The notes below the pieces were generated by a model, which was not told the DNA's origin, made no database searches, and saw only the letters and a list, made by a program, of their open reading frames with translations. A program made the position numbers and the translations under genes. This document shows positions 2,242 through 43,387 of a stretch of DNA of 64,000 bases, in pieces (positions within the stretch are counted from its first letter, which is position 1; every line of letters starts with the position of its first letter). This stretch comes from an uncultured Alphaproteobacteria bacterium (GTDB lineage: Bacteria > Pseudomonadota > Alphaproteobacteria > RF32 > CAG-239). The stretch spans positions 6,391-70,390 of the forward strand of contig CANPYS010000001.1 of assembly GCA_947588655.1 (NCBI GenBank). The letters run 5' to 3'.

Positions 2242-3684
2242 ATGTTTCGGCCTGTTCTTTTGATTAATGGATGTGTGCTTTCTTTTTTAGGTTTGGGCAT
2301 GCTCTTGCCGGCGCTGATGGATATGTACGACGAACGCTCTGATTGGTCGCCTTTTTTGACATCGGCTCTTTTGGCGCTTGGTGTTGGTTCAGGGCTTTTT
2401 TTGCTTAATAGATTTACCACGCCCAAAATCTCTATTCGGACAGGTTATTTAGCAACACTAACAAGTTGGCTTTCAGTGGCTTTTTTTGCGGCAGTGCCGT
2501 TTTATTTGAGCGGCGCTTTTCAAGATATACCCTCTGCCTTGTTTGAAAGTTTTTCCGGTGTGACTGGCACCGGTGCGACTGTCTTGGCAGATGTTGAAAG
2601 TCAGGCACGTTCTGTTTTGTTGTGGCGCTCTATGCTCAATGCTTTGGGTGGTATCGGGATTGTGGTGTTTGCCGTGGCGGTTTTGCCGTTTTTAGGCATT
2701 GGCGGTATGCAGGTTTTTCAACGCGAAAACACAGATCCTGGCGATAAATTTATGCCGCATTTTGTGGATATTGTGCAGTGGATTATTGGTATTTATTTGT
2801 CGCTTACGCTTTTATGCGCTCTTCTTCTTATGCTTTGCGGTATGGGGCGTTTTGATGCGCTTAATCATGCTATGACGGCCGTTGCGACGGGAGGGTTTTC
2901 AACCAAAAATGATTCTGTTGCCGGTTTTGATAGCGTCTCGGTTGAACTTGTGCTTTCTGTTTTTATGCTTTTGGGTGCTTTACCCATGACTTTTTATATT
3001 TTGCTTATCAGGCGACAAGCGATGGATATATTGCGTTTGGAGCAAGTGAAATCGTTTTTAAGAGCGGTTGTTTTTTTGGCGGCCTTTGTGACGTTGTGGC
3101 TTTATTTTCAAAGAGGGTATGATATTTTTAGAGCCTTGCGGCAAGCTTGGTTTAATGTGATTTCTGTTATTACCACAACGGGTTATGCCTCGTCCGATTA
3201 TTTGAATTGGGGAATCGGGGCAGGGGTGTTCTTTGCACTTTTGGCGTTTCATGGTGGTTGCGTTGGCTCAACGACAGGCGCTATTAAGGAAATGCGTTGG
3301 CAGGTTTTGTGGTCATATTTTAACAAAACTTTTTTAAATGCAATTGAGCCTAATCGTATTGTTCCGGTTAAAGCTGGTTCTGCCGTTGTTTCCGATGATG
3401 TGGTTGGATCGGTTTTTGGTTTTGTGTGTTTGTTTTTTGTGTCGGCGGCTTTGGCAGCTTTATGTATGGGACTTTCGGGGTATGATTTTGCCACGTCGTT
3501 TTCAACTGCGGCGGCTCTGATTACGAATACAGGTCCGGGGTTTATCGGGGCGACTGGTCCGATGGGGAATTATGCGCTTTTATCGCCGCACATTAAGCTT
3601 TTGATGTGTTTTGTTATGCTTTTGGGACGCTTGGAAATTTTGACTGTTTTGGTTATTTTCAGTCGCTCGTTTTGGAAATCTTAG
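2242..3684 (+). CDS. trkH: Trk-type potassium uptake transporter, TrkH/TrkG family
   Basis: 480-aa polytopic membrane protein with repeated pore-loop GxG segments (TGTGATV, TTTGYASS, TNTGPGF) typical of TrkH. Confidence 0.85.
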   Translation: MFRPVLLINGCVLSFLGLGMLLPALMDMYDERSDWSPFLTSALLALGVGSGLFLLNRFTTPKISIRTGYLATLTSWLSVAFFAAVPFYLSGAFQDIPSALFESFSGVTGTGATVLADVESQARSVLLWRSMLNALGGIGIVVFAVAVLPFLGIGGMQVFQRENTDPGDKFMPHFVDIVQWIIGIYLSLTLLCALLLMLCGMGRFDALNHAMTAVATGGFSTKNDSVAGFDSVSVELVLSVFMLLGALPMTFYILLIRRQAMDILRLEQVKSFLRAVVFLAAFVTLWLYFQRGYDIFRALRQAWFNVISVITTTGYASSDYLNWGIGAGVFFALLAFHGGCVGSTTGAIKEMRWQVLWSYFNKTFLNAIEPNRIVPVKAGSAVVSDDVVGSVFGFVCLFFVSAALAALCMGLSGYDFATSFSTAAALITNTGPGFIGATGPMGNYALLSPHIKLLMCFVMLLGRLEILTVLVIFSRSFWKS

Positions 3685-3886
3685 TTTGTAAAACTTGTTC
3701 TAGTACAAAAATTCTAATTGCGCTTGAAAGGTTTGTTTCTGTGCGGTTGGCATCAATTTGTGTGATTAAATCGTTAAGCGTTTGATGCCTTTGTGCGGCA
3801 AGTTCTTTAAGCTTTTCATAAAAAATGTCTTCTAAAGAAATGCTGGTGTGATGTTGTTTGGCAATCAGCACTGAAATTTTTTTCAT
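3659..3886 (-). CDS. ribbon-helix-helix (RHH_4-like) DNA-binding protein
   Basis: 75 aa from ATG at 3886, immediately after the sspB stop. Motif SISLEDIFYEKLKELAAQRHQTLNDLITQID...NLSSAIRIFVL resembles alphaproteobacterial RHH_4/COG4321 proteins. Confidence 0.5.
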   Translation of the reverse strand: MKKISVLIAKQHHTSISLEDIFYEKLKELAAQRHQTLNDLITQIDANRTETNLSSAIRIFVLEQVLQTKISKTSD

Positions 3887-3887
3887 T

Positions 3888-4331
3888 TTACTTTTTCCGA
3901 AAACTGTCAATAGAAATAACTTCCGCCGGTTTATCGGGGATTATTTTTTTAGATTTTGCAGGGGATTCGTCGCTTTCTTCCAAAACAAAGCTCAAGCCAA
4001 ACTTAGCATAAGGATCAGCAAAATAGTTTACAGCGTCAAAAGGAACAGTTAAAGGTTCTGGTACGCCGCCAAAAACCAAAATAACCGAAAACTGATTTTC
4101 ATCAACCACCAAATCTGAAAACTGATGTTGCAGAACAATGGTCATATTTTCCGGATATTGTGTTCTTAATGCTATAGGCATTTGAACGCCGGGGTAATTT
4201 GTTTGAAAGGTGATGTAAAAATGATTCTCGCCTTGCAAGCCTTGCTCGGCAACGCATTTAAGAGCATCTATCATGACGCCCTTTAAATGCTTTGTAATTA
4301 GCTTATCGTAATTAATTTCTGTTATTTGCAT
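3888..4331 (-). CDS. sspB: stringent starvation protein B (ClpXP adaptor SspB)
   Basis: 147 aa with conserved SspB core (HFYITFQT...GVQMP...IVLQHQF..L...QFSVIL.FGG) and acidic C-terminal tail. Confidence 0.75.
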   Translation of the reverse strand: MQITEINYDKLITKHLKGVMIDALKCVAEQGLQGENHFYITFQTNYPGVQMPIALRTQYPENMTIVLQHQFSDLVVDENQFSVILVFGGVPEPLTVPFDAVNYFADPYAKFGLSFVLEESDESPAKSKKIIPDKPAEVISIDSFRKK

Positions 4332-4390
4332 TTGAACCTCTTTTTTTCTTTATAGGCTCTTTTGCTTAAAGTTTTATTAAAATGCTACCA

Positions 4391-4424
4391 CAAAATAAAA
4401 AGGAGAGGAAAATCCCTCTCCTTC
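4391..4424 (-). terminator. rho-independent terminator downstream of the OMP gene (minus strand)
   Basis: Read on the minus strand: hairpin GGAGAGG-GATTTTCC-TCTCC followed by TTTTTTATTTT. Confidence 0.55.
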
Positions 4425-4441
4425 CAAGGACGTTTTTCTTG

Positions 4442-5188
4442 TTAGAAAGCGTAACGAACGCCAAGCAAGAACTCGTGCGCGGTTACATCATAATGTCCGG
4501 TGTTGACGGTTAAGGCCTTTAATCCGGTTGCGCTTTGAACGGTGGTTTCTTTGACTTTGCCGTAATCAGAATATCTGTAACCGGCATCAAAAGAAACTTT
4601 ATCATTCAAGGCATAAGAAACACCGGCGCTGATGTTATAAGCGATATTGTGATCACCTTCGCTACTGCCTTGGTTAATGTATGCGCCATCACCTGCAGGA
4701 CCTGTCACTTTAGTTTTGTTCTTCAAATAAGCATAACCTAAACCGGCGCCGACATAAGGTGTGAACTTTGTGCCCGTGTTGAAGTCATAATAAAGGTTAA
4801 GCATAGCGGAATAAACCGATAATTTGGTTTCAAATTTTTGGTTGTAGGGTTGTTTAATACGGAAAGTGTAGCCGTTAGAATCGCGGGCGTTGCTGTTCCA
4901 GCCTAATTCAAATTCAGCGCGGAGTTGATTGTTATCAAGCGGTTTAACCGTACCGGCGGCAAGTCTTAAACCAAAAACATTATCTTCGTGCTTTTCTTTT
5001 GAAAAAGTATTTAAGTAATGTCCTAAACCGTTAAATGAATAGTCCGAAATTGCATGTGCATCGTTTATCATATGAACGAAGGCTGCTTTGGCAGATACAT
5101 AATAGTTGGAAGTTGTGGCTTCAGTGGCATTGGCACTTGTTGCTAATAAAGCTGTGGCTATGCCAGAAAGTAATATAGTTTTTTTCAT
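4442..5188 (-). CDS. small outer-membrane beta-barrel protein (OmpA-like/Omp25-Omp31-type porin family)
   Basis: Start at MKKTILLSGIATALLATSANA (signal peptide, GGAGA RBS). Alternating amphipathic strands, C-terminal ...GVRYAF aromatic terminus. Confidence 0.7.
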   Translation of the reverse strand: MKKTILLSGIATALLATSANATEATTSNYYVSAKAAFVHMINDAHAISDYSFNGLGHYLNTFSKEKHEDNVFGLRLAAGTVKPLDNNQLRAEFELGWNSNARDSNGYTFRIKQPYNQKFETKLSVYSAMLNLYYDFNTGTKFTPYVGAGLGYAYLKNKTKVTGPAGDGAYINQGSSEGDHNIAYNISAGVSYALNDKVSFDAGYRYSDYGKVKETTVQSATGLKALTVNTGHYDVTAHEFLLGVRYAF

Positions 5189-5446
5189 ATTTAATCTCCA
5201 TAAATAGTTAAAAAATGCCACTTTGATGAAAGGTGGCAGGAAGTAAGAATCTATTTACGGAATAGTGTAGTATATTGGTTATAACAACCTATTTTACTAC
5301 CTTCCTGCCCTAGGCAAAAAGGTAGTGTTTTACATCTGTTTTTACAGATAACCGTAAAGAGGATTCTTGACCCCATATCAGGTATCGCCTGATACAAGGT
5401 TAGATTATCCAAAATATAATAGAAAGTCAAGGTTTAAAATAAAAAA

Positions 5447-5483
5447 AAGAGCCTTCTGTTGCTAAGCGGCTCTCAAGCTCCAC
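5447..5483 (-). terminator. rho-independent terminator oriented for a minus-strand transcript coming from the repeat region
   Basis: Plus strand reads AAAAAAAAGAGCCttctgttgctaagcGGCTCT. The minus-strand reading is a GC stem followed by a T8 run. Confidence 0.45.
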
Positions 5484-5690
5484 TTGTGGCAAACCAATGC
5501 CTCAAGAATTAAGTTTATTGCTTTCGCCTAAATTAAGCAGCGATTGCAACAGGTGCAAAATTATCATTTGCATTCATTTATTTTGAACCGGTAACGGTGG
5601 TTTCTCGCCGAACACAACATCTATCTTTACTGTTGTCCTGTCAAACCTATTTCGCCCCCTACGAAAATGTGCTAAAGCGCTTTCATGCTT

Positions 5691-5937
5691 GGGATTTTTT
5701 CGCTCATTTACGCCTTTTGTAAACTTCGCTCAAAAATCCCTGTGCAGCAAAGCACTTTATCCCATTTTCAACAGGCACCGTGCTTGCTGCCTTTCATACT
5801 TGGAATTTTTTCGCTCATTTACCCATTTTGTAAACTTCGCTCAAAAATCCCTGCGTAGCAAAGACCTTCTCCGCTTTCTTAAGGTCTTAGGGTTTTTGTT
5901 GTTTACGCCTTTTGTAAACTTCGCTCAAAAATCCCTT
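5691..5937. repeat. three tandem imperfect ~50-85-bp units, each an internal palindrome GGGATTTTTT...AAAAATCCC
   Basis: Units at 5691-5740, 5802-5851 and 5890-5937 share ...ttttttcgctcatttacSccttttgtaaacttcgctcaaaaatccct... Flanks are also similar (ctttcatRcttgg / tgYgYagcaaag). Extra hairpin AAGACCTT...AAGGTCTT at 5860-5888. Confidence 0.8.
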
Positions 5938-6220
5938 TAATTGGTGGAGGCGCCGGGTACTGCCCCCGGGTCCAATACACCTATTCCATAGTGTTTTTCG
6001 TGTCAAAGTCGGTTGCCCGACTATTTCTATTATATCTCTTAAACAAAAGAAAGCAAGCTTTTTATTAAAAAACTATTCTTTTGTTTGTTTCAATTCATCT
6101 TTTTAATGTATCCGCTATCTATTCGGTTATATCATTTTGACCGATGTTAGCTCTGTTTTGAGGTATATATTTTTTTTGCTTTCAATCATTTGGCGTCAAA
6201 GTTGCAGTTGAGGAAAATTG

Positions 6221-8755
6221 ATGCCAAATGGTTTTTTTTATAAATCTGCAAGGCTTTTTTTCTTTTTTCAATTAAATCTCACTGCCGCAACAACTTATGC
6301 TTCTGTGATAGATGTTCCTGCCGGTGCGCATCAATCTTTAGACGGCGAAACTTATTATGGCAACGAACTAGAGGTTTCTGATCAGCAGGGCGTGTTGCAT
6401 GGCGGTGTGGTTTATGTTGAACCGGCAGAATCGGGCAAAGCCAGAGGTGTTTTAGACAGTCTGACCAATACCAACTTTTATGAAAATATCGTGACGGCGA
6501 AGGAGAATCTTTCTGTTTGGGGCGGAGCGATTGATAATGATGGCGAGATTACGCTTTTAGACAGTGTGATTTTTACGCATAACCAACTTTTGATAGAAGG
6601 GGAAAATCAGTCAGCATACGGTGGCGCTATTGCGAATCAAAAAGGTGCAATAATTCAACGCTTTGTCAAGGGGAGCTTTGTGGATAATATCGCTCAATCG
6701 GATGCTGGCAATGCCTATGGTGGCGCTATTTATAATGGCGGTGAAATCGGTTCTATGGAAAATGTTTATTTTTCAGAAAATATTGTTCAAGCGCATGGCG
6801 CGGCTTTGGGCGGCGCGCTTTATCATGAGGGTGGCACGCTCTTTTTGAGTGGTATGAATACGTTTGCAGGCAATCAGGCCTCTTCAGATACCGGCCAAGC
6901 GCTGGGTGGCGCGATTTATATGAAATCGGGCGATATCATTTTTTCGGGTATGAATTTCTTTTCATTTAATACGGCTGATGGTGTGGCAAATGATATTTAT
7001 ATTGAAAACGGACGAATTCTTATTCGTGACGGTGAACTTTATTTAGACGGCGGCATTATGGGCAATGGCATTACCCTGATTGCCCCGCAGGCAAAGCTTT
7101 ATTTGCGGCAGACGCTTGCCGATACGGTTATGGAAACAACACTTGTTAATAATGGCATTGTTGCTATTGAAGAGGGCTATCGGGCGCATTTTTCGCGTGA
7201 AACATTTAATAATGGTCTGATTGAAGTGGAGCCCAACGCCGAACTTTATACGACAGGCATTGACAATACCGGCACGTTGACAAACGCGGGTCAATATGTG
7301 AATGAGGGCGATATTTATCTTTTGGGGCAGGGTGTTTTTTTAAATGAGGGTAAAGCAGAAAATAGCGGTATGCTTTCTCTCTCAGATAACTCTTCTCTTA
7401 AGCTTGGCACGCAAAGTCTTTTGCATACAGGCAGTTATCAAGCCAGTGGAACGCCGACTTTGGAGCTTGATGTTTTGCTTAATCCGGAAACACACGAGGT
7501 TACGCACGGCGTTTTGGAGGTTGAGGGCGATGTGATTGGGAAAACGGGCGTTATTTTGCATTTTTTAGATAGTGATCAGGGCTTTCCGAGTATGGAAGGG
7601 TTTTTAAGTGCGTATGTTTTAGCGCCGAATGATGATTTGATGACGCCGGCAGATTTTATTGTTCAACGTATTTGGGGCAGTCCGTTAGATTTTAATTGGC
7701 TGTCGCGTTATAATGCCAAGGGCGATGAAAAAGGAAGTGCTTGGTATTTGGGCGTGTTGCCCCCTGAGCCGAGACAACCTGATTTGCCCTTTGAGTTTGT
7801 GACGCCTCTCCCTGAGCCACCACCACGACCGTCTGTTTATGTGCCGGAAGTGCCGGTTTATGCAGCGTTGGGGCAGGTTTTATATGAGCAGACGCGACAT
7901 TTGTTTGAGGCTGTGCAAAGTGGATTTGCGCCTCAAATTTGCGCTGATTGTGCGTTTTCATCTGATCCGCGGGGTTTTGTTCAGGTGCAGTATCATCATG
8001 TTGCGTTAGACAAGCCCTCAGATGTGAGAGGGCATGTTCAGGCAGTCAATGCTGGTGTGCGGGTTGTGGAAAACGGCGCTTATCAGGCCGGTGTGTTTGG
8101 TCAATACGGCAAAGGAAAATACAGCTTTTCAGGGGCAGGGGATTATCAGGCTTTAAGTGGCGCAAAAATGCGTGTCACGGATTATGTTTTTGGTCTTTAT
8201 CAGCAGTATCAGACAGAAAAATACGGTTTGTTCGGCGCATTATACGGCGGACGGCAAAATATGGGCTTTACAACGGATGACGGCGTGATTGATGAAAACA
8301 CGCATGCAATGGTATATGGAATCGGCGTTTCGGCGGCGCGTTATGTGCCGCTTGCTTTACGTTGGCAACTTGTGCCGTTCGTTTCGGTTCAGGCGGAGCG
8401 GCTAGAGATTGCCGATATTCATGATCAGGCCGGCAAAACGGCGCATTATCACAATCCGCTTTATGGCGAGGCGAGCTTGGGCGCGGCTTTGAAATATGAT
8501 TCATGTGAGGGGCAGAATAAAGCCGGCTTTTATGTCAAACCTTCGGTGGTGCAAACGTTTGGGCGGCATACGGGTGTTCAAATCACGGGGATGAATCAAA
8601 CAAAATCGCAACCCTCACAGACACTCGGGCGGTTTGAACTGGGCGCGGAATTTGCGCATCATGAGCGCATTTCGGGCTATGCCGGCGCGGCTTATACCTT
8701 TGGCAAAGACTATCACGCCTACCAATTCTCCGCAGGGGTAAAGATTGCTTTTTAG
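6221..8755 (+). CDS. autotransporter with Pmp-type (GGAI / FxxN) passenger repeats and C-terminal beta-barrel translocator
   Basis: RBS GAGGAAAA then ATG 6221. Repeated AYGGAI/ALGGAIY and FTHN/FSEN/FAGN/FSFN motifs in the passenger. C-terminal ~280 aa has alternating beta-strands ending FSAGVKIAF. Confidence 0.8.
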   Translation: MPNGFFYKSARLFFFFQLNLTAATTYASVIDVPAGAHQSLDGETYYGNELEVSDQQGVLHGGVVYVEPAESGKARGVLDSLTNTNFYENIVTAKENLSVWGGAIDNDGEITLLDSVIFTHNQLLIEGENQSAYGGAIANQKGAIIQRFVKGSFVDNIAQSDAGNAYGGAIYNGGEIGSMENVYFSENIVQAHGAALGGALYHEGGTLFLSGMNTFAGNQASSDTGQALGGAIYMKSGDIIFSGMNFFSFNTADGVANDIYIENGRILIRDGELYLDGGIMGNGITLIAPQAKLYLRQTLADTVMETTLVNNGIVAIEEGYRAHFSRETFNNGLIEVEPNAELYTTGIDNTGTLTNAGQYVNEGDIYLLGQGVFLNEGKAENSGMLSLSDNSSLKLGTQSLLHTGSYQASGTPTLELDVLLNPETHEVTHGVLEVEGDVIGKTGVILHFLDSDQGFPSMEGFLSAYVLAPNDDLMTPADFIVQRIWGSPLDFNWLSRYNAKGDEKGSAWYLGVLPPEPRQPDLPFEFVTPLPEPPPRPSVYVPEVPVYAALGQVLYEQTRHLFEAVQSGFAPQICADCAFSSDPRGFVQVQYHHVALDKPSDVRGHVQAVNAGVRVVENGAYQAGVFGQYGKGKYSFSGAGDYQALSGAKMRVTDYVFGLYQQYQTEKYGLFGALYGGRQNMGFTTDDGVIDENTHAMVYGIGVSAARYVPLALRWQLVPFVSVQAERLEIADIHDQAGKTAHYHNPLYGEASLGAALKYDSCEGQNKAGFYVKPSVVQTFGRHTGVQITGMNQTKSQPSQTLGRFELGAEFAHHERISGYAGAAYTFGKDYHAYQFSAGVKIAF

Positions 8756-28102: not shown

Positions 28103-29029
28103 ATGAAGTACGTTTTAATTTTAATAGCAATTTTGTTTTCAAGTCAGGCGGTGGCGCTGAATTGTGAAAAGCAACCAACCTGCGAGGAGTTAAATTATTC
28201 CAAGGAAGACGATCCTCAATGTGCTGAGGACGGTTATATTCTCTGTCCGTTTGACTTTTCCTATAAAAAATGTTTACAGCCTGATTGTGAAAAATTAGGC
28301 TTTACACAATCGGATAAATCATTATGGTGCAATGAAATTGCTTCCTGTCCGTTCAACGCCTCTTACACGCTTTGTAATCGCAAAGCCGTGCAATGTAAGG
28401 TTGGCGATGTGTATTACGCAGATGACACTTGCGGTTCTTCCAATAATCTGGACACTACTAAAATTCCGGTCGGCGTTGTGTTTTATGTGACAGCTGACGG
28501 ACGTCACGGTCGCGTTTTGGCTTTTGATGAGTTCCAAGGAGCCTACAGCGCAATGAATTCAATCAGCGCCGCCTTACCTTTGTTTACCTGTGAACAAGTG
28601 TTGGACGGTTTGAAAAAAGGAAATCCGGATTTATATGATGGTCAAGCGCAAACCCAAAAAGTTGCCGCGCTTGATTCGCAAAGTGCCGCCGCCAAAGCTC
28701 TTGAATATTATCCTCAAGAAATTGACCCTGATACACCTTACACCGGCAAAGGAAACTGGTATTTGCCAACACTTGGCGAGTGGGAGTGGCTTTATGACCA
28801 TGAATTTATAGACAAATGCCCGATTTCATCAGGTGGAAATAATTACGCCAACATTCCTATTGTACCTGTCTTAAAAAAGCTTGGAAAGAGCGGCATGCGG
28901 ACAGACCGTTTTTGGTCGATTAACTTATTTTCATCTAAACAAGCGCTTTATTTTGGCACCACTTACGGGGATATAGATTCCAAACTTCTGCTTTATCAAT
29001 ATTATATTCGTCCGATTATGAAATTTTAA
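28103..29029 (+). CDS. secreted Cys-rich paralog P2
   Basis: First ~95 aa about 90% identical to P1. Divergent middle. C-terminal WYLPTLGEWEWLY, FWSINLF and ...YYIRPIMKF. Confidence 0.8.
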   Translation: MKYVLILIAILFSSQAVALNCEKQPTCEELNYSKEDDPQCAEDGYILCPFDFSYKKCLQPDCEKLGFTQSDKSLWCNEIASCPFNASYTLCNRKAVQCKVGDVYYADDTCGSSNNLDTTKIPVGVVFYVTADGRHGRVLAFDEFQGAYSAMNSISAALPLFTCEQVLDGLKKGNPDLYDGQAQTQKVAALDSQSAAAKALEYYPQEIDPDTPYTGKGNWYLPTLGEWEWLYDHEFIDKCPISSGGNNYANIPIVPVLKKLGKSGMRTDRFWSINLFSSKQALYFGTTYGDIDSKLLLYQYYIRPIMKF

Positions 29030-30602: not shown

Positions 30603-32900
30603 ATGCATCAAAATAAAAATCCGTTCGGGGTGAAAATTTTACTTTCCTATGAGGAGCTTGAGCGCGATACCGCGGCGGCGCGCGCGGTTCGGCATTTGCA
30701 GACCGATTTGGCAGATGATGATACGGAAATTATTGTCGCAGAACATTTAGAAGACGCTCGCGCTATTTTTGCAAGCGACGCCGGCATTCAATGTGTGTTG
30801 ATGGGCCTAGAATGTCAGTATTGCTCCAACACTTATGAGGTTTTGGATGTTCTTCGGGCGCAAAATCCGACCGTGCCGATTTTTTTGATGTCAAGCCGCA
30901 ATATGGCCTCGCAAATTCCGACTTCTGCGCTTGAAAAAGTGAGCGATTTTATTTGGCTTTTGGAAGATACCACCGATTTTATTTCAGGACGAATCCGCGC
31001 CGCGATTGAGCGTTATCGTTCCTTTATCCTGCCGCCGATGTTTAAGGCATTGGCACGGTTTGCCAAAATTCATGAATATTCGTGGCACACCCCGGGGCAT
31101 ACAGGCGGAACGGCGTTTTTGAAATCTGCCGTCGGACGCGACTTTTTTAATTTTTTCGGCGAACAGGCGTTTCGTTCCGATCTTTCCATTTCCGTTGGCG
31201 AGCTTGGCTCTATGCTTGACCATACTGGTCCTATCGGGGAAAGCGAAAAATATATGGCGCGTGTGTTTAATTCTACCCGCAGTTATCATGTTACCAACGG
31301 TTCGTCCACCTCTAACCGCATTATCTTAACGGCAAGTGTGACACGTGATGAAATTTGCTTGTGTGATAGAAATTGTCACAAATCGGTAGAGCATGCGATG
31401 ACGCTTTCAGGCGCTATCCCGACTTATTTAGTTCCGACCCGCAACCAATACGGCATTATCGGCCCGATTTTGCCCGAGCGTTTAACGCCCGAGGCCGTTA
31501 AGCAGGCCATTGATGAAAACCCGCTTGTGAGCGAGCGCATTGATCATCAGCCCAAGCATGCCATTATCACAAACTCCACTTATGATGGCTTGTGTTATAA
31601 TGTTACGCAAGTGCGCGACTTGTTAGGGCAAAGTGTTGACCGCTTGCATTTTGACGAGGCTTGGTACGGATATGCGCGCTTTAATCCGATTTATGAGGGG
31701 CGTTATGCGATGTGTTGCAATCCGCAAACTTATGATAAATCGCAACCAACTGTTTTTGCCACACAATCCACGCACAAGCTTTTGGCGGCCTTCTCGCAAG
31801 CCTCTATGATTCATGTGTTGGAAGGGCGCAACCCGATTGACCATGTCCGCTTTAACGAATCGCTGATGATGCACTCGTCCACATCGCCGCTTTATCAGAT
31901 TATTGCCTCTAATGATGTGAGCGCGGCAATGATGGATAACGGAGGTGGCAAAACCTTGACCGATATTTCCATTCGTGAAGCGATTGATTTCAGAAAAACA
32001 GTGGCGCGAATCCATAAAGAATATGGCGATAATGATGATTGGTTCTTTAATATTTGGCAACCGGATCAGGTTCGTATCCCCGAAACGGGTGAAAAAGTGC
32101 CGTTTTATGAAGCGCCTGACGACCTTTTGGCGACTATGCCCGATTGTTGGGTTTTGCACCCTGATGAAGCTTGGCACGGTTTCGGCGCTATTGCAGATGG
32201 TTATTGCATGCTTGATCCGATTAAAGTTTCAGTCACAACCCCCGGCGTGATGCCTGATTCATCGCTTGCCGATTGGGGCATTCCGGCGGCGCTTTTAACG
32301 GCTTATTTGGATAATAAGGGCATTATTGTTGAAAAGACGACCGATTTTACCATTCTGTTCCTCTTCTCAATGGGTGTGACAAAAGGGAAATGGGGCACGC
32401 TCTTAAACGCTCTCTTTGCCTTTAAAGATGATTATGACAACAATGTGCCGCTTTCGCGCATCATGCCCAAAATTTACCACGCAGATGAAACAAAATATGC
32501 TTCCATGGGGTTGCGTGATTTAAGTGTGGAAATGTTTGAGGCGATGAAATCTTTGGGAACAACCAAAGCCCTTTCGGCGGCGTTTTCCGTCCTTCCGCAT
32601 CCGGATATGACGCCTGTTGAAACGCATGAGCAACTTGTTAAAAATAATGTGGAATCGCTTACGCTTGATGAAATGGAGAATCGCACCGTTGCCACCGGCG
32701 TTGTTCCATATCCGCCAGGAATCCCGATGTTAATGCCTGGTGAAAATGCAGGCCCTTCAGACGGTCCGCTTCTCGGTTATCTCAAAGCCTTGGAAGCCTT
32801 TGATCAAAGATTCCCTGGGTTTGGGCATGATACGCATGGGGTGGAAGTAGTGGCTGGTTCCGGCAAATACCGCATTCTATGTTTAAGAAAAGGCGTATAA
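30603..32900 (+). CDS. adiA: biodegradative arginine (Orn/Lys/Arg family) decarboxylase, fold-I PLP enzyme with N-terminal wing domain
   Basis: 765 aa. Blocks WLLEDTTDFISGRIRAAIERYR, KIHEYSWHTPGH, DRNCHKS, RLHFDEAWYGYARFNPIY and IPYPPGIPML align best with AdiA. PLP-Lys in ...STHKLL... Confidence 0.65.
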   Translation: MHQNKNPFGVKILLSYEELERDTAAARAVRHLQTDLADDDTEIIVAEHLEDARAIFASDAGIQCVLMGLECQYCSNTYEVLDVLRAQNPTVPIFLMSSRNMASQIPTSALEKVSDFIWLLEDTTDFISGRIRAAIERYRSFILPPMFKALARFAKIHEYSWHTPGHTGGTAFLKSAVGRDFFNFFGEQAFRSDLSISVGELGSMLDHTGPIGESEKYMARVFNSTRSYHVTNGSSTSNRIILTASVTRDEICLCDRNCHKSVEHAMTLSGAIPTYLVPTRNQYGIIGPILPERLTPEAVKQAIDENPLVSERIDHQPKHAIITNSTYDGLCYNVTQVRDLLGQSVDRLHFDEAWYGYARFNPIYEGRYAMCCNPQTYDKSQPTVFATQSTHKLLAAFSQASMIHVLEGRNPIDHVRFNESLMMHSSTSPLYQIIASNDVSAAMMDNGGGKTLTDISIREAIDFRKTVARIHKEYGDNDDWFFNIWQPDQVRIPETGEKVPFYEAPDDLLATMPDCWVLHPDEAWHGFGAIADGYCMLDPIKVSVTTPGVMPDSSLADWGIPAALLTAYLDNKGIIVEKTTDFTILFLFSMGVTKGKWGTLLNALFAFKDDYDNNVPLSRIMPKIYHADETKYASMGLRDLSVEMFEAMKSLGTTKALSAAFSVLPHPDMTPVETHEQLVKNNVESLTLDEMENRTVATGVVPYPPGIPMLMPGENAGPSDGPLLGYLKALEAFDQRFPGFGHDTHGVEVVAGSGKYRILCLRKGV

Positions 32901-33042
32901 CCGCTCATCTAGAGGCGTTTTTACGGGTCTCGGGAAATTCACGTACCTCTTTTGTACGCTGGAATTTCCCTCGCCCTTAAAACACCTCTATCTAAACGGT
33001 TCTCCGCCTTTCCACGGCTTGGGAGAAAATTAAGAAAACGTC

Positions 33043-42560: not shown

Positions 42561-42756
42561 CCACGAGGGAATGCGTCTAATGGGCGCCTTTTGGAAATGC
42601 GTCTAGCTGGCACCTAGAGCAATTTAAGGGGCAAAAGTGTCCTCACGTACGCTTTTAGTACGCTGTGGTACTTTTGCCCCTTAAATCACTCTATCTGCAC
42701 ACGCTATCCGCATTTCCGAGGACTATGATTAAAAATAAGGATTCGATATTAAAAAA

Positions 42757-42790
42757 ACGTCCATTTCAAAATGGACGTTTTTTGTTGCTT
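42757..42790 (+). terminator. rho-independent terminator after nifJ (same hairpin as 33043-33078)
   Basis: AAAACGTCCATTTCAAAATGGACGTTTTTTGTTG. Confidence 0.65.
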
Positions 42791-42799
42791 TAATATAGC

Positions 42800-42908
42800 A
42801 ATTTAAAGGTACCTTTAAATTGATGCGATTCGACAGCCACCGAACGTCATGCTGAACTTGTTTCAGCATCTCTTTGATGAGATCCCGAAACAAGTCCGGA
42901 ATGACAAA
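42800..42908 (-). repeat. orphan reverse-oriented fragment of the paralog upstream cassette (double-hairpin part)
   Basis: GTCATGCTGAACTTGTTTCAGCATCTCTTTGATGAGATCCCGAAACAAGTCCGGAATGAC is the reverse complement of the arm1-A-arm2 element. No paralog gene follows on the minus strand. Confidence 0.6.
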
Positions 42909-42921
42909 GAAAAAACAAGAA

Positions 42922-43387
42922 AATCAATAACTTATCATCAAAACATGTGCAAAAAAAGGTACCTTTAAATGTGCAATTTGTCAAGAAAAATTTTTGAGAT
43001 TTTTCAAAAGGTTATTTTCTTGATAAAACGTGCATTTAAACGTACGTTTTTTTGAGAAATGTGTATAGCGGCACATCTAAAGCCGTTTTTTCAAGTTCGG
43101 AAAATTCACGTACGTCTATGTACGCTCAAATTTTCCTCACTTTTGAAACGACTTTATCTGCACCACTCTCCACATTTCTTTGGCTAGAACAAGAGAGGGA
43201 AAGTCTCTCTAAAATGTCATTTCCAAACTCGTTTCGGGATCTCATAAAAAGAGATGCTGAAACAAGTTCAGCATGACATTTGGGGTGTTTTGGGGATGAC
43301 GATTCGGAAGAGTTTGTTGTCCTAGACTCTTCGCTGACGCTCAGAGTGACCATGACGGCGGAAATAGTGACGAACAAGGAGGAAAGA
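42922..43387 (+). promoter_or_regulatory. upstream cassette (copy for P4), interrupted by ~150 bp of unrelated repeat sequence
   Basis: First half 42922-43050 matches the cassette (AAATGTGCAATTT..., AACGTGCATTTAAACGTACG). 43055-43205 differs (shares gaaaattcacgtac...tacgct with 32926-32990). Arm2/TGACGATTCGG/RBS resume at 43205-43387. Confidence 0.6.

What the first reader, a model, noticed from the sequence alone, without database searches (positions are those of the whole stretch)
5222..6220. 1-kb intergenic region with tandem palindromic ~50-85-bp repeats and a minus-strand terminator: candidate sRNA or regulatory array
Two divergent OMP-type genes lie 1 kb apart, between 5188 and 6221. 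In between there are three tandem units (5691-5740, 5802-5851, 5890-5937), each folding as GGGATTTTTT-loop-AAAAATCCC with a conserved 30-nt loop and conserved flanks. There is an extra hairpin AAGACCTT/AAGGTCTT (5860-5888). There is a long-range inverted repeat GGCAGGAAGTA...TACCTTCCTGCC (5235-5310). A strong intrinsic terminator readable only on the minus strand (5447-5483) has no annotated gene feeding into it. The 83-aa ORF over the repeats is just the repeat translated in-frame. The pattern suggests one or more structured non-coding RNAs, or a REP/MITE-like family, controlling the flanking outer-membrane genes.
Basis: seen in the sequence. Interest (0 to 1): 0.55.

Follow-up and report, generated by a model that had tools for sequence, protein, structure and literature searches.

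The report
Split tmRNA gene with repeat-filled spacer
The "empty" 1-kb gap holds the housekeeping gene for a two-piece ribosome-rescue RNA (tmRNA), and the palindromic repeats sit in its discarded internal spacer, so the gene is ordinary but its spacer is unusually long and variable.

Summary
Most of them belong to one known gene: a circularly permuted ssrA gene (alphaproteobacterial two-piece tmRNA) on the minus strand, 6060-5445. It scores 195 bits against Rfam RF01849 and 132 bits against RF04321. The "orphan" minus-strand terminator is the 3' end of this gene.

All three palindromic units and the AAGACCTT hairpin lie in the 282-nt intervening sequence (IVS, 5941-5660). By family knowledge, the IVS is cut out when the precursor matures.

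In relatives (uncultured, mostly gut Alphaproteobacteria) the IVS ranges from 5 to 309 nt and holds zero to three such units. The main hairpin covaries and folds better on the tmRNA-sense strand. A homologous five-unit array lies outside ssrA in a related contig. The repeats are therefore a low-copy palindromic element that amplifies in tandem, similar to REP/BIME or the Rickettsia palindromic elements. They are not an sRNA array controlling the OMP genes.

The long-range inverted repeat (5235-5310) belongs to something else. It is part of a structured leader of the OMP gene, in which alternative helices overlap an intrinsic terminator. This candidate attenuator has no Rfam match.

The parts
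6029..6056 (-). ssrA promoter: -35 TTGCTT (6056-6051), 16-nt spacer, -10 TATAAT (6034-6029)
   Evidence: Read directly from the sequence. Both hexamers are invariant in L001 and L007 (alignment A1). L018 has TTGATA-17-TATAAT at the same place. The simple promoter scan missed it because the -35 matches only 3 of 6 positions. Function as a promoter is inferred.
5942..6022 (-). Acceptor piece of the two-piece tmRNA: 5' hairpin GUCGG-GCAA-CCGAC, T arm CCCGG-GGCAGUA-CCGGG, then 3' end CGCCUCC-ACCA with the CCA encoded (last A = 5942). The 5' end is approximate.
   Evidence: Aligns to Rfam RF01849 positions about 40-118 and to RF04321.
5660..5941 (-). Intervening sequence (IVS), 282 nt, lying between the encoded CCA and the 5' G of the coding piece. 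It holds all the repeats.
   Evidence: cmscan treats about 240 nt here as an insertion relative to the roughly 42-nt IVS of the model. Fold z = -6.45. IVS boundaries were taken from the sequence.
5886..5937 (-). Hairpin A, copy 1 in RNA order. This is a shortened variant and belongs to an 84-nt unit.
   Evidence: Covariance model R1 scores 50.5 bits. The same variant unit is present in L008.
5860..5888 (-). Hairpin B' (AAGACCUU / AAGGUCUU) with loop AAGAAAGCGGAGA
   Evidence: Seen in the sequence and in the fold. It is identical in L008.
5799..5853 (-). Hairpin A, copy 2. It starts the full 111-nt unit.
   Evidence: R1 scores 76.9 bits. It falls in direct-repeat family D1.
5745..5790 (-). Hairpin B (GCAGCAAGCAC / GUGCUUUGCUGC), lying between copies 2 and 3
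   Evidence: Read from the sequence. The same strands can pair in other ways in the minimum-energy fold.
5688..5742 (-). Hairpin A, copy 3. It is followed by the element's tail CAAGCAUGAAAGCGCUUUAGCACAUUUUCGUA, which runs up to the coding piece.
   Evidence: R1 scores 76.1 bits. Unit plus tail is 85% identical to the last unit of the array outside ssrA in L040.
5447..5659 (-). Coding piece of the tmRNA, starting GGGGGCGAAAUAGG. Its first 7 nt pair with CGCCUCC of the acceptor piece and include a G3-U pair.
   Evidence: Aligns to Rfam RF01849 positions 161-355. The helix between the two pieces shows compensatory changes between strains.
5533..5571 (-). Tag reading frame: resume codon GCA, peptide ANDNFAPVAIAA, stop UAA
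   Evidence: Taken from the cmscan alignment. ARAGORN reports ANDNFAPVAVAA or ANDNFAPVALAA in relatives.
5441..5473 (-). 3'-terminal hairpin AGAGCC / GGCUCU followed by U8.
   Evidence: It lies at the end of the RF01849 match, and the pairing can be read from the sequence.
5189..5444 (-). A separate feature: the promoter and roughly 210-nt structured leader of the OMP gene.
- Helix H3 pairs 5325-5313 with 5309-5297.
- An intrinsic terminator pairs 5237-5233 with 5221-5217 and is followed by U6 at 5215-5210, about 20 nt before the ribosome-binding site.
   Evidence: Fold z = -5.56, and the minimum-energy structure contains H3 and the terminator. An 88%-identical copy precedes a different gene in L007. 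A 69%-identical copy precedes an OMP homologue in L045. The switch strand covaries with both of its partners. Nothing in Rfam matches at E < 1.

Best explanation
The gap between the two outer-membrane genes holds a circularly permuted ssrA gene on the minus strand.

How the gene works:
- One transcript starts at a sigma-70-type promoter (6056-6029) and ends at the hairpin plus U-run at 5473-5441.
- It carries, in order, the tRNA-like acceptor piece ending in an encoded CCA (to 5942), a 282-nt intervening sequence (IVS), and the coding piece (from 5659).
- The coding piece encodes the degradation tag ANDNFAPVAIAA.
- As in other two-piece tmRNAs, tRNA-processing enzymes are expected to free the two pieces. 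RNase P would cut at the 5' G of the coding piece, and 3' processing would trim the acceptor piece to CCA.
- The two pieces stay joined by base pairing, and the IVS is discarded. Processing is inferred from family knowledge, not shown here.

What the repeats are:
- The three 'tandem palindromic repeats' are the IVS. It consists of an 84-nt variant unit, a 111-nt unit and a final unit with its tail.
- Each unit is built around hairpin A: outer stem, GAGCGA/GAGCGA internal loop with opposed G and A, inner stem GUKUAC/GUAMAY, and a 7-nt purine-rich loop.
- The units belong to a low-copy palindromic element family that amplifies in tandem, in uncultured and mostly gut-derived Alphaproteobacteria.
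- The family has colonised the ssrA spacer, probably because the spacer is removed from the mature RNA.
- Copy number changes between strains, most likely by slippage or unequal recombination (inferred).
- Selection keeps each unit folding on itself on whichever strand is transcribed.

Whether the hairpins merely keep a long spacer from disturbing tmRNA folding, or have a function of their own, is not settled. The repeats are not a regulator of the flanking OMP and autotransporter genes.

Confidence by part: tmRNA identity and the IVS location of the repeats, about 0.97. Membership in a palindromic element family that also occurs outside ssrA, about 0.7. A tolerated passenger rather than a functional part, about 0.55.
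For: Identity as tmRNA:
- RF01849 scores 195.4 bits (cut-off 50) over the full model 1-355, at 6060-5445 (-). RF04321 scores 131.9 bits.
- The sequence shows a 7-bp acceptor stem with a G3-U pair, an encoded CCA, a T arm and the tag ANDNFAPVAIAA followed by UAA.
- The helix joining the two pieces reads ACACUAU/AUAG-UGU in the window and L008, but GAAGCAU/AUGC-UUC in L001 and L007. Four of its 7 pairs change on both sides.

The repeats lie in the IVS:
- cmscan places all of them in the insertion between the CCA and the GGGGG.

Relatives:
- ssrA lies directly upstream of sspB in 15 of the 16 related loci looked up through SspB homologues, and also in L007.
- IVS lengths are 309, 302, 282, 245, 236, 199, 175, 172 and 163 nt, and only 5 nt (TTTAT) in L018-20.
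- Copy number differs within near-identical backgrounds. The window has 83 nt more than L001-5. L013 has 73 nt fewer than L010-12, although all four encode the same SspB protein.

RNA-level constraint on hairpin A (20 units):
- 84.8% of cells form pairs, against 32-65% when partners are slid.
- 7 pairs show changes on both sides, and 0 of 500 shuffles reach the observed covariation score.
- There are 20 G-U pairs against 1 A-C.
- Every IVS folds better in the tmRNA sense, for example -91.4 against -69.5 kcal/mol.

Element family:
- L040 carries 5 tandem units (118-120 nt) just after the stop codon of a SIMPL-domain gene, with no tmRNA nearby. L023 carries 1 unit at the same place.
- The window's last unit plus tail is 85% identical to the last unit in L040.

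Literature:
- The permuted form has an IVS that is absent from mature tmRNA, and one IVS is reported to hold 'a repetitive element' (PMC11915505).
- A Rickettsia palindromic element is inserted in the tmRNA gene of R. bellii (PMC1458961).
- Processing into acceptor and coding pieces was shown by Northern blot in Orientia (PMC7335160).
Against: - There are no expression or processing data for this organism. Excision of so long an IVS is inferred.
- ARAGORN does not call the gene in the window, L007, L008, L009 or L014, and it miscalls L001.
- The family is scarce. The model finds no clear extra copy in the 64-kb window or in about 125 kb of relatives' flanks. The window-type 23-mer occurs in only one GTDB representative genome, and only at ssrA. 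'Mobile element' therefore rests on one second locus type.
- Covariation and strand bias also fit a positive RNA function, so 'tolerated passenger' is not demonstrated.
- Copy numbers come from short-read metagenome assemblies, which can collapse near-identical tandem units.
Confidence: 0.85

Rival explanations
1. The IVS hairpins are a working part of the system. They might be a processing platform (for example RNase III or RNase E entry sites) that helps release the two tmRNA pieces. Or the excised multi-hairpin RNA might persist and act on its own, for example by titrating a protein that binds the repeated GAGCGA or GGA-containing motifs.
For: - Hairpin A covaries and shows a strong G-U bias toward the tmRNA-sense strand.
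- A 31-nt core, GAGCGAC-GUGUAC-AAAGAG-GUACAC-GAGCG, recurs in high-GC soil metagenome contigs, in intergenic positions.
- Hairpin B loops repeatedly carry GCGGAKAA.
- The module is kept in the IVS of at least six diverged lineages.
Against: - Relatives manage with a 5-nt IVS, so the module is not needed for two-piece tmRNA as such.
- Copy number varies between near-identical strains.
- Inner units of the L040 array are decaying, scoring 26-39 bits against 69 for the best unit.
- No partner protein or stable RNA product is known.
Confidence: 0.17
2. One reading: one or more independent small RNAs, or a cis-regulatory repeat array, that control the flanking OMP and autotransporter genes.
For: The repeats lie between two divergent outer-membrane genes and are strongly structured.
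Against: - The repeats lie inside the ssrA transcription unit, between its promoter and terminator.
- In relatives, ssrA with the same modules lies next to DUF1189, hypothetical or other unrelated genes.
- In L007 the OMP gene is absent from the locus.
- No separate promoter or terminator brackets the units.
Confidence: 0.03
3. The units are leftovers of site-specific recombination. The inner 6-bp stem with its 7-nt loop would have served as an integrase core site, as tRNA and tmRNA arms do, and repeated integration and loss of islands left tandem attachment-site copies.
For: - tmRNA genes are frequent island integration sites (PMC11915505).
- The hairpin apex has the symmetry of a core site.
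- Gene cassettes have been inserted on either side of ssrA in the window and in L007.
Against: - The units are directly tandem, with no island DNA, integrase gene or tRNA-like sequence between them.
- The L040 array is not at a tRNA or tmRNA gene.
Confidence: 0.04
4. The 83-aa ORF on the plus strand (5689-5940) encodes a repeat protein.
For: The antisense strand is nearly free of stop codons across the IVS in most lineages.
Against: - A stop-free stretch of equal length is reached by 6-40% of dinucleotide shuffles, because that strand is poor in G.
- The open frame differs between lineages, and L009 has stops in all three frames.
- Changes between lineages are compensatory changes in stems.
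Confidence: 0.01

Closest known systems
Alphaproteobacterial two-piece (circularly permuted) tmRNA: Rfam RF01849 alpha_tmRNA and RF04321 tmRNA_permuted. It was characterised in Caulobacter crescentus (Keiler, Shapiro and Williams 2000; that paper was not held, so it is cited from the reference lists seen).
   Same: - The gene order is the same: acceptor piece with encoded CCA, then the IVS, then the coding piece.
- It has the G3-U acceptor stem and the family's GGCnGUA T loop.
- The tag is of the ANDN...AA type, and the gene ends in a terminal hairpin.
- The full-length model match is far above the family cut-off.
   Different: The IVS is 282 nt, against about 42 consensus positions in the model. 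It is made of tandem palindromic units. ARAGORN does not detect the gene.
Permuted tmRNA gene of HGM16780 sp944390355. [quoted passage not shown]
   Same: It is a permuted tmRNA whose IVS is enlarged by repetitive sequence.
   Different: Whether its repeat is related is unknown. The window-type 23-mer did not hit it in the GTDB scan.
Rickettsia palindromic elements (RPE). [quoted passage not shown]
   Same: It is a palindromic repeat of about 100 nt, tolerated inside an alphaproteobacterial tmRNA gene.
   Different: RPEs are dispersed in hundreds of copies and also insert into protein-coding genes. The family here is low-copy, forms head-to-tail arrays and shows no sequence relation to RPEs.
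Enterobacterial REP/BIME arrays and pneumococcal BOX elements (from general knowledge; not tested here).
   Same: - They are modular palindromic units in tandem, with strain-variable copy number.
- They lie in transcribed intergenic DNA, often after stop codons, as in L040, L023 and L027.
- They form hairpins in the RNA.
   Different: REP elements number in the hundreds per genome, carry a conserved GTAG head and are linked to RAYT transposases. None of those three features was seen or tested here.

Membership tests
Permuted (two-piece) alphaproteobacterial tmRNA (RF01849 / RF04321) | Covariance-model score at or above the curated gathering score, over the full model | tested here: met
   RF01849 scores 195.4 bits against a cut-off of 50, model positions 1-355. 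RF04321 scores 131.9 bits against 47, positions 1-213.
Permuted (two-piece) alphaproteobacterial tmRNA (RF01849 / RF04321) | Permuted order: the 3' half of the tRNA-like domain (T arm, acceptor 3' strand, CCA) lies upstream of the 5' acceptor strand and the tag reading frame | tested here: met
   The CCA ends at 5942 and GGGGGCG starts at 5659, both on the minus strand.
Permuted (two-piece) alphaproteobacterial tmRNA (RF01849 / RF04321) | Acceptor stem formed between the two pieces, with the G3-U70 alanine identity pair | tested here: met
   GGGGGCG pairs with CGCCUCC over 7 bp, and the third pair is G-U. This is read from the cmscan alignment.
Permuted (two-piece) alphaproteobacterial tmRNA (RF01849 / RF04321) | Tag reading frame with an alanine resume codon and a hydrophobic ...AA end before a stop codon | tested here: met
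   GCA AAU GAU AAU UUU GCA CCU GUU GCA AUC GCU GCU UAA translates to ANDNFAPVAIAA. Relatives give ANDNFAPVAVAA or ANDNFAPVALAA.
Permuted (two-piece) alphaproteobacterial tmRNA (RF01849 / RF04321) | Helices that hold the two pieces together are kept in evolution | tested here: met
   The window and L008 allele differs from the L001 and L007 allele on both sides at 4 of 7 pairs, and all pairs are kept.
Permuted (two-piece) alphaproteobacterial tmRNA (RF01849 / RF04321) | The precursor is transcribed and processed into two stable pieces, and it acts together with SmpB | not testable with these tools
   No transcript data are available, and smpB was not looked for. sspB, the adaptor for tagged proteins, lies 1.1 kb downstream.
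REP/BIME-like or RPE-like interspersed palindromic element | The unit is an imperfect palindrome that forms a hairpin | tested here: met
   Shown by the folds and the pair counts.
REP/BIME-like or RPE-like interspersed palindromic element | Copies at several unrelated loci in a genome | tested here: inconclusive
   - Homologous arrays occur at a second locus type in related contigs (L040-43, L023).
- No clear extra copy was found in the 64-kb window or in about 125 kb of relatives' flanks.
- The exact 23-mer occurs only at ssrA in one GTDB representative genome.
- One weak palindrome at 32917-32985 may be a distant relative (E = 0.22).
REP/BIME-like or RPE-like interspersed palindromic element | An associated transposase (RAYT / IS200-type) or another means of mobilisation | not tested
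   Only fragments of each genome were available.
MITE | Terminal inverted repeats flanked by a target-site duplication at each insertion | tested here: inconclusive
   The units abut head to tail, so the indels between alleles are flanked by repeat sequence and no duplication can be defined.
Independent trans-acting sRNA gene | Its own promoter and terminator delimiting the structured RNA | tested here: not met
   The units lie inside the ssrA transcript. The only terminator is the one that ends ssrA.

The most novel reading that the evidence does not exclude
The part of the finding that does bear on outer-membrane gene control, the long-range inverted repeat at 5235-5310, may belong to an undescribed transcription attenuator.

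- It would act as an ON switch that senses a ligand or a protein factor.
- It travels with surface-protein gene cassettes in gut Alphaproteobacteria.
- One strand, GGCAGGAAG, can pair in two ways. It pairs either with an upstream partner (H3, in which case the terminator forms) or with a downstream partner. That downstream partner closes a three-way junction and overlaps the 5' arm of the terminator.

Separately, the excised IVS hairpin array might be a functional RNA product rather than waste.
Probability: 0.3. Interest if true: 0.65.

Novelty: new member of a known kind. Interest (0 to 1): 0.38.

Why it matters
- **Annotation.** tmRNA genes with long, repeat-filled spacers escape ARAGORN. 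They then look like empty intergenic DNA with orphan terminators. The covariance models find them.
- **tmRNA biology.** Within one clade the spacer of a permuted ssrA gene ranges from 5 to about 310 nt, and its copy number varies between strains. This is a natural experiment on what the precursor tolerates, and on whether spacer hairpins help maturation.
- **Repeat elements.** A low-copy palindromic module that amplifies in tandem and is shared between the ssrA spacer and a 3' intergenic site has not been described for these uncultured gut bacteria, as far as the searches here show.
- **Regulation.** The adjacent OMP leader is a testable candidate for a new attenuator class that controls surface proteins.

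Tried and rejected
- Tandem Repeats Finder on 5100-6300 found no array, because the units match over only part of the period.
- ARAGORN on the window found nothing.
- The simple promoter and terminator scan missed both the ssrA promoter and its terminator, because the terminator loop is 14 nt.
- A JGI metagenome scan for the window-type core gave 0 hits.
- The second metagenome scan, with the L009/L014-type core, gave 18 loci. Fourteen are unrelated contexts that share only the 21-mer.
- Coding potential of the antisense ORF was rejected.
- A conserved leader peptide in the OMP leader was rejected, because L045 reads AUG-UGA.
- Searching papers for the hairpin core sequence found nothing.
- Keiler 2000 and Sharkady & Williams 2004 are not held in the library. 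Typical IVS length therefore rests on the Rfam model, not on those papers.
- MAFFT misaligned L045 in the leader, so the helices were checked by explicit string matching instead.
- The pattern hit at 28364 is not palindromic and was judged to be chance.
Full report
**Observation**

The region 5189-6220 lies between a minus-strand OMP beta-barrel gene (4442-5188) and a plus-strand autotransporter gene that starts at 6218/6221.
- The repeats are real. Two 78-nt copies (5680-5757 and 5791-5868) are 90% identical and 111 nt apart. A third 35-nt copy lies at 5902-5936.
- The 25-nt core occurs three times in the 64-kb window, all here, with none expected by chance.
- The AAGACCTT/AAGGTCTT hairpin, the inverted repeat 5235-5245/5299-5310 and the minus-strand hairpin plus U-run near 5447-5483 are all present.
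- Tandem Repeats Finder reports nothing, because the units match over only part of the period.

**What it is**

A search against Rfam places a full-length alphaproteobacterial tmRNA on the minus strand at 6060-5445. RF01849 scores 195.4 bits against a cut-off of 50, over model positions 1-355. The general permuted-tmRNA model RF04321 scores 131.9 bits at 6004-5533.

The alignment shows the family's anatomy:
- a 5' hairpin;
- the T arm CCCGG-GGCAGUA-CCGGG;
- the acceptor 3' strand CGCCUCC followed by an encoded ACCA ending at 5942;
- a large insertion;
- GGGGGCGAAAUAGG from 5659, whose first seven bases pair with CGCCUCC and include a G3-U pair;
- the tag frame GCA...UAA at 5571-5533, encoding ANDNFAPVAIAA;
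- a terminal hairpin AGAGCC/GGCUCU followed by eight U.

A TTGCTT-16-TATAAT promoter lies at 6056-6029. It is conserved in relatives.

ARAGORN does not call the gene. It also fails or miscalls in the closest relatives with long spacers.

**Where the repeats sit**

All three units and the extra hairpin lie between the CCA (5942) and the 5' G of the coding piece (5659). This is the intervening sequence (IVS), which is absent from mature two-piece tmRNA (PMC11915505; PMC3985003).

Cleavage of such a precursor into an acceptor piece of about 80 nt and a coding piece of about 240 nt has been shown by Northern blot in Orientia (PMC7335160). For this organism, processing is inferred.

The IVS is 282 nt here, against about 42 consensus positions in the Rfam model. 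It folds strongly, at -91.4 kcal/mol with z = -6.45.

**Relatives**

- **Source organisms.** The window's SspB protein is found on metagenome contigs (L001-L006). The repeat core occurs in one GTDB representative genome, a MAG of an uncultured alphaproteobacterium (L007). Named homologues are all labelled 'MAG: Alphaproteobacteria bacterium', and some source contigs are labelled pig or human gut.
- **Synteny.** ssrA lies directly upstream of sspB on the same strand in L007 and in 15 of the 16 related loci retrieved through SspB homologues.
- **IVS lengths.** They are 199 nt (L001-5), 309 (L007), 172 (L008), 302 (L009), 235-236 (L010-12), 163 (L013), 245 (L014), 175 (L016) and only 5 nt, TTTAT, in L018-20.
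- **Unit periods.** They differ by lineage: 111, 99, 101 and about 73 nt. Units within one genome resemble each other more than units of other genomes do.
- **Copy number in close backgrounds.** The window has one 84-nt unit more than L001-5, which are 98.9% identical over 5.8 kb of flank. L013 has one unit fewer than L010-12, although all four encode the same SspB protein.
- **Assembly check.** The window's extra unit is identical to the first unit of L008, an independent assembly. It is therefore not an assembly artefact.

**Constraint on the hairpin**

Twenty copies of hairpin A from ten loci were aligned (A2).
- 84.8% of cells form standard pairs, against 32-65% when the partners are slid by 1 to 3 columns.
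- Seven pairs show changes on both sides.
- None of 500 shuffles reach the observed covariation score.
- In L014 the opposed G and A of the GAGCGA internal loop are replaced by A-U and U-A pairs.
- There are 20 G-U pairs against one A-C.
- Every IVS folds better in the tmRNA sense than in the antisense.

The structure is therefore kept at the RNA level, on the transcribed strand. Many of these cells are not independent, because the sequences are related.

**A repeat family, not only an ssrA feature**

A covariance model of hairpin A (R1) finds only the IVS copies in the window and in about 125 kb of relatives' flanks. A second metagenome scan changed the picture.
- L023 carries a complete hairpin A plus the element's tail between two convergent protein genes.
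- L040, a longer contig with the same SIMPL-domain gene, carries five tandem units of 118-120 nt just after that gene's stop codon. No tmRNA is present there.
- The window's last unit plus tail is 85% identical to the last unit in L040.
- The L040 array folds better on the strand of the SIMPL mRNA. This suggests selection for hairpins on whichever strand is transcribed.
- A 31-nt core of the hairpin also recurs in intergenic DNA of high-GC soil contigs.
- A 90-nt palindrome with a similar apex follows the ORF that ends at 32900 in the window. It scores only E = 0.22.

The repeats are therefore best described as a low-copy palindromic element that amplifies in tandem and has settled in the ssrA spacer. 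The closest parallels are the Rickettsia palindromic element inserted in the R. bellii tmRNA gene (PMC1458961) and REP/BIME or BOX arrays. The 2025 tmRNA database paper notes in one sentence a permuted tmRNA whose IVS 'contains a repetitive element'.

**What the repeats are not**

- **Not a separate transcription unit.** They have no promoter or terminator of their own.
- **Not tied to the flanking genes.** The neighbouring genes differ among relatives that have the same ssrA modules.
- **Not protein-coding.** A stop-free antisense stretch as long as the plus-strand ORF is reached by 6-40% of shuffles, and the frame is not conserved.

**The long-range inverted repeat is a different feature**

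Minus strand 5444-5189 is the promoter and a leader of about 210 nt for the OMP gene. It is strongly structured (z = -5.56).
- An 88%-identical copy precedes an unrelated lipoprotein-like gene in L007.
- A 69%-identical copy precedes an OMP homologue inserted between rpoA and rplQ in L045.
- L044 has the same layout with a different sequence.

The strand GGCAGGAAG(GUAG) can pair in two ways:
- with the upstream CUACCUUUUUGCC (helix H3);

The downstream partner overlaps the 5' arm of an intrinsic terminator (GCCAC/GUGGC plus U6) that lies about 20 nt before the ribosome-binding site.

From the window to L045 the switch strand changes from GGCAGG to GACUGG. Both partners change to match: UUGCC becomes UGGUC, and CCUGCC becomes CCAGUC. 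The terminator stem also covaries.

The minimum-energy fold contains H3 and the terminator. No leader peptide is conserved, and no Rfam family matches at E < 1. This is a candidate conditional attenuator, supported by only three or four sequences.

**Verdict**

The core object is a known kind of gene, a permuted tmRNA, with an unusually long, variable and repeat-filled spacer. The interest lies in that spacer, in the element family and in the neighbouring leader.

Noticed in passing
window 5189-5444 (-); L007 4657-4912 (-); L045 2765-2956 (+); L044 1-137: A structured leader with two mutually exclusive helices and an intrinsic terminator just before the ribosome-binding site. It is conserved upstream of non-homologous surface-protein genes (an OMP and a lipoprotein-like gene). 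The switch strand covaries with both partners. Nothing in Rfam matches. It is a candidate attenuator or ON-type riboswitch.
   Followed up: partly
window 3659-6060; L007 2543-3936; L008-L020: The order ssrA, sspB (the adaptor for SsrA-tagged proteins), then a small RHH_4 gene is conserved on one strand across the clade. In the window and L001 a leader-plus-OMP cassette is inserted between ssrA and sspB. In L007 a cassette with the same leader but a lipoprotein-like gene sits on the other side of ssrA.
   Followed up: partly
window about 5985-5991 and 5615-5622 (-), compared with L001, L007 and L008: Two alleles of the helix joining the acceptor and coding pieces (ACACUAU/AUAG-UGU and GAAGCAU/AUGC-UUC) occur among strains that are otherwise 96-99% identical. 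This looks like a co-converted or recombined patch.
   Followed up: partly
L018-L020 2647-2981: A pig-gut relative has a 335-nt permuted ssrA whose spacer is only 5 nt (TTTAT). That is close to the shortest loop that could close the acceptor stem.
   Followed up: yes
L040 4745-5360; L023 44-130; L041-43: A five-unit tandem array (118-120 nt per unit) of the same palindromic module lies right after the stop codon of a SIMPL/DUF541 gene, with no tmRNA nearby. A 99%-identical strain (L023) has a single unit there. The inner units are degenerate.
   Followed up: partly
L025 1100-1177; L027 840-960; L039 1290-1400: Soil contigs with 64-68% GC and another gut contig carry intergenic hairpins with the same core, GAGCG(A/G)C-GUGUAC-AAAGAG-GUACAC-GAGCG. 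They lie after the stop codons of unrelated genes. The organisms and the function are unknown.
   Followed up: no
window 32917-32985: A palindrome of about 90 nt lies immediately after the ORF 30603-32900. Its apex, GCGUAC-AAAAGAG-GUACGU, resembles the apex of hairpin A (R1 19.9 bits, E = 0.22). It may be a distant family member or simply a terminator.
   Followed up: partly
window 42561-43279: Another gene-free stretch of about 700 nt holds three long inverted repeats (42610-42698, 42846-42905, 42950-43054) and a bidirectional terminator-like hairpin (about 42756-42785). Nothing in Rfam reaches the gathering score.
   Followed up: no
window, L001, L007, L008, L009, L014: ARAGORN misses or miscalls the permuted tmRNA in these loci. 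It gives a wrong tag in L001 and finds nothing in L008, whose IVS is only 172 nt. It succeeds on L010, L013, L016, L018 and L019.
   Followed up: yes
L045 2651-3732: An OMP homologue with the same leader is inserted between rpoA and rplQ, inside the otherwise conserved ribosomal-protein and RNA-polymerase gene cluster.
   Followed up: no
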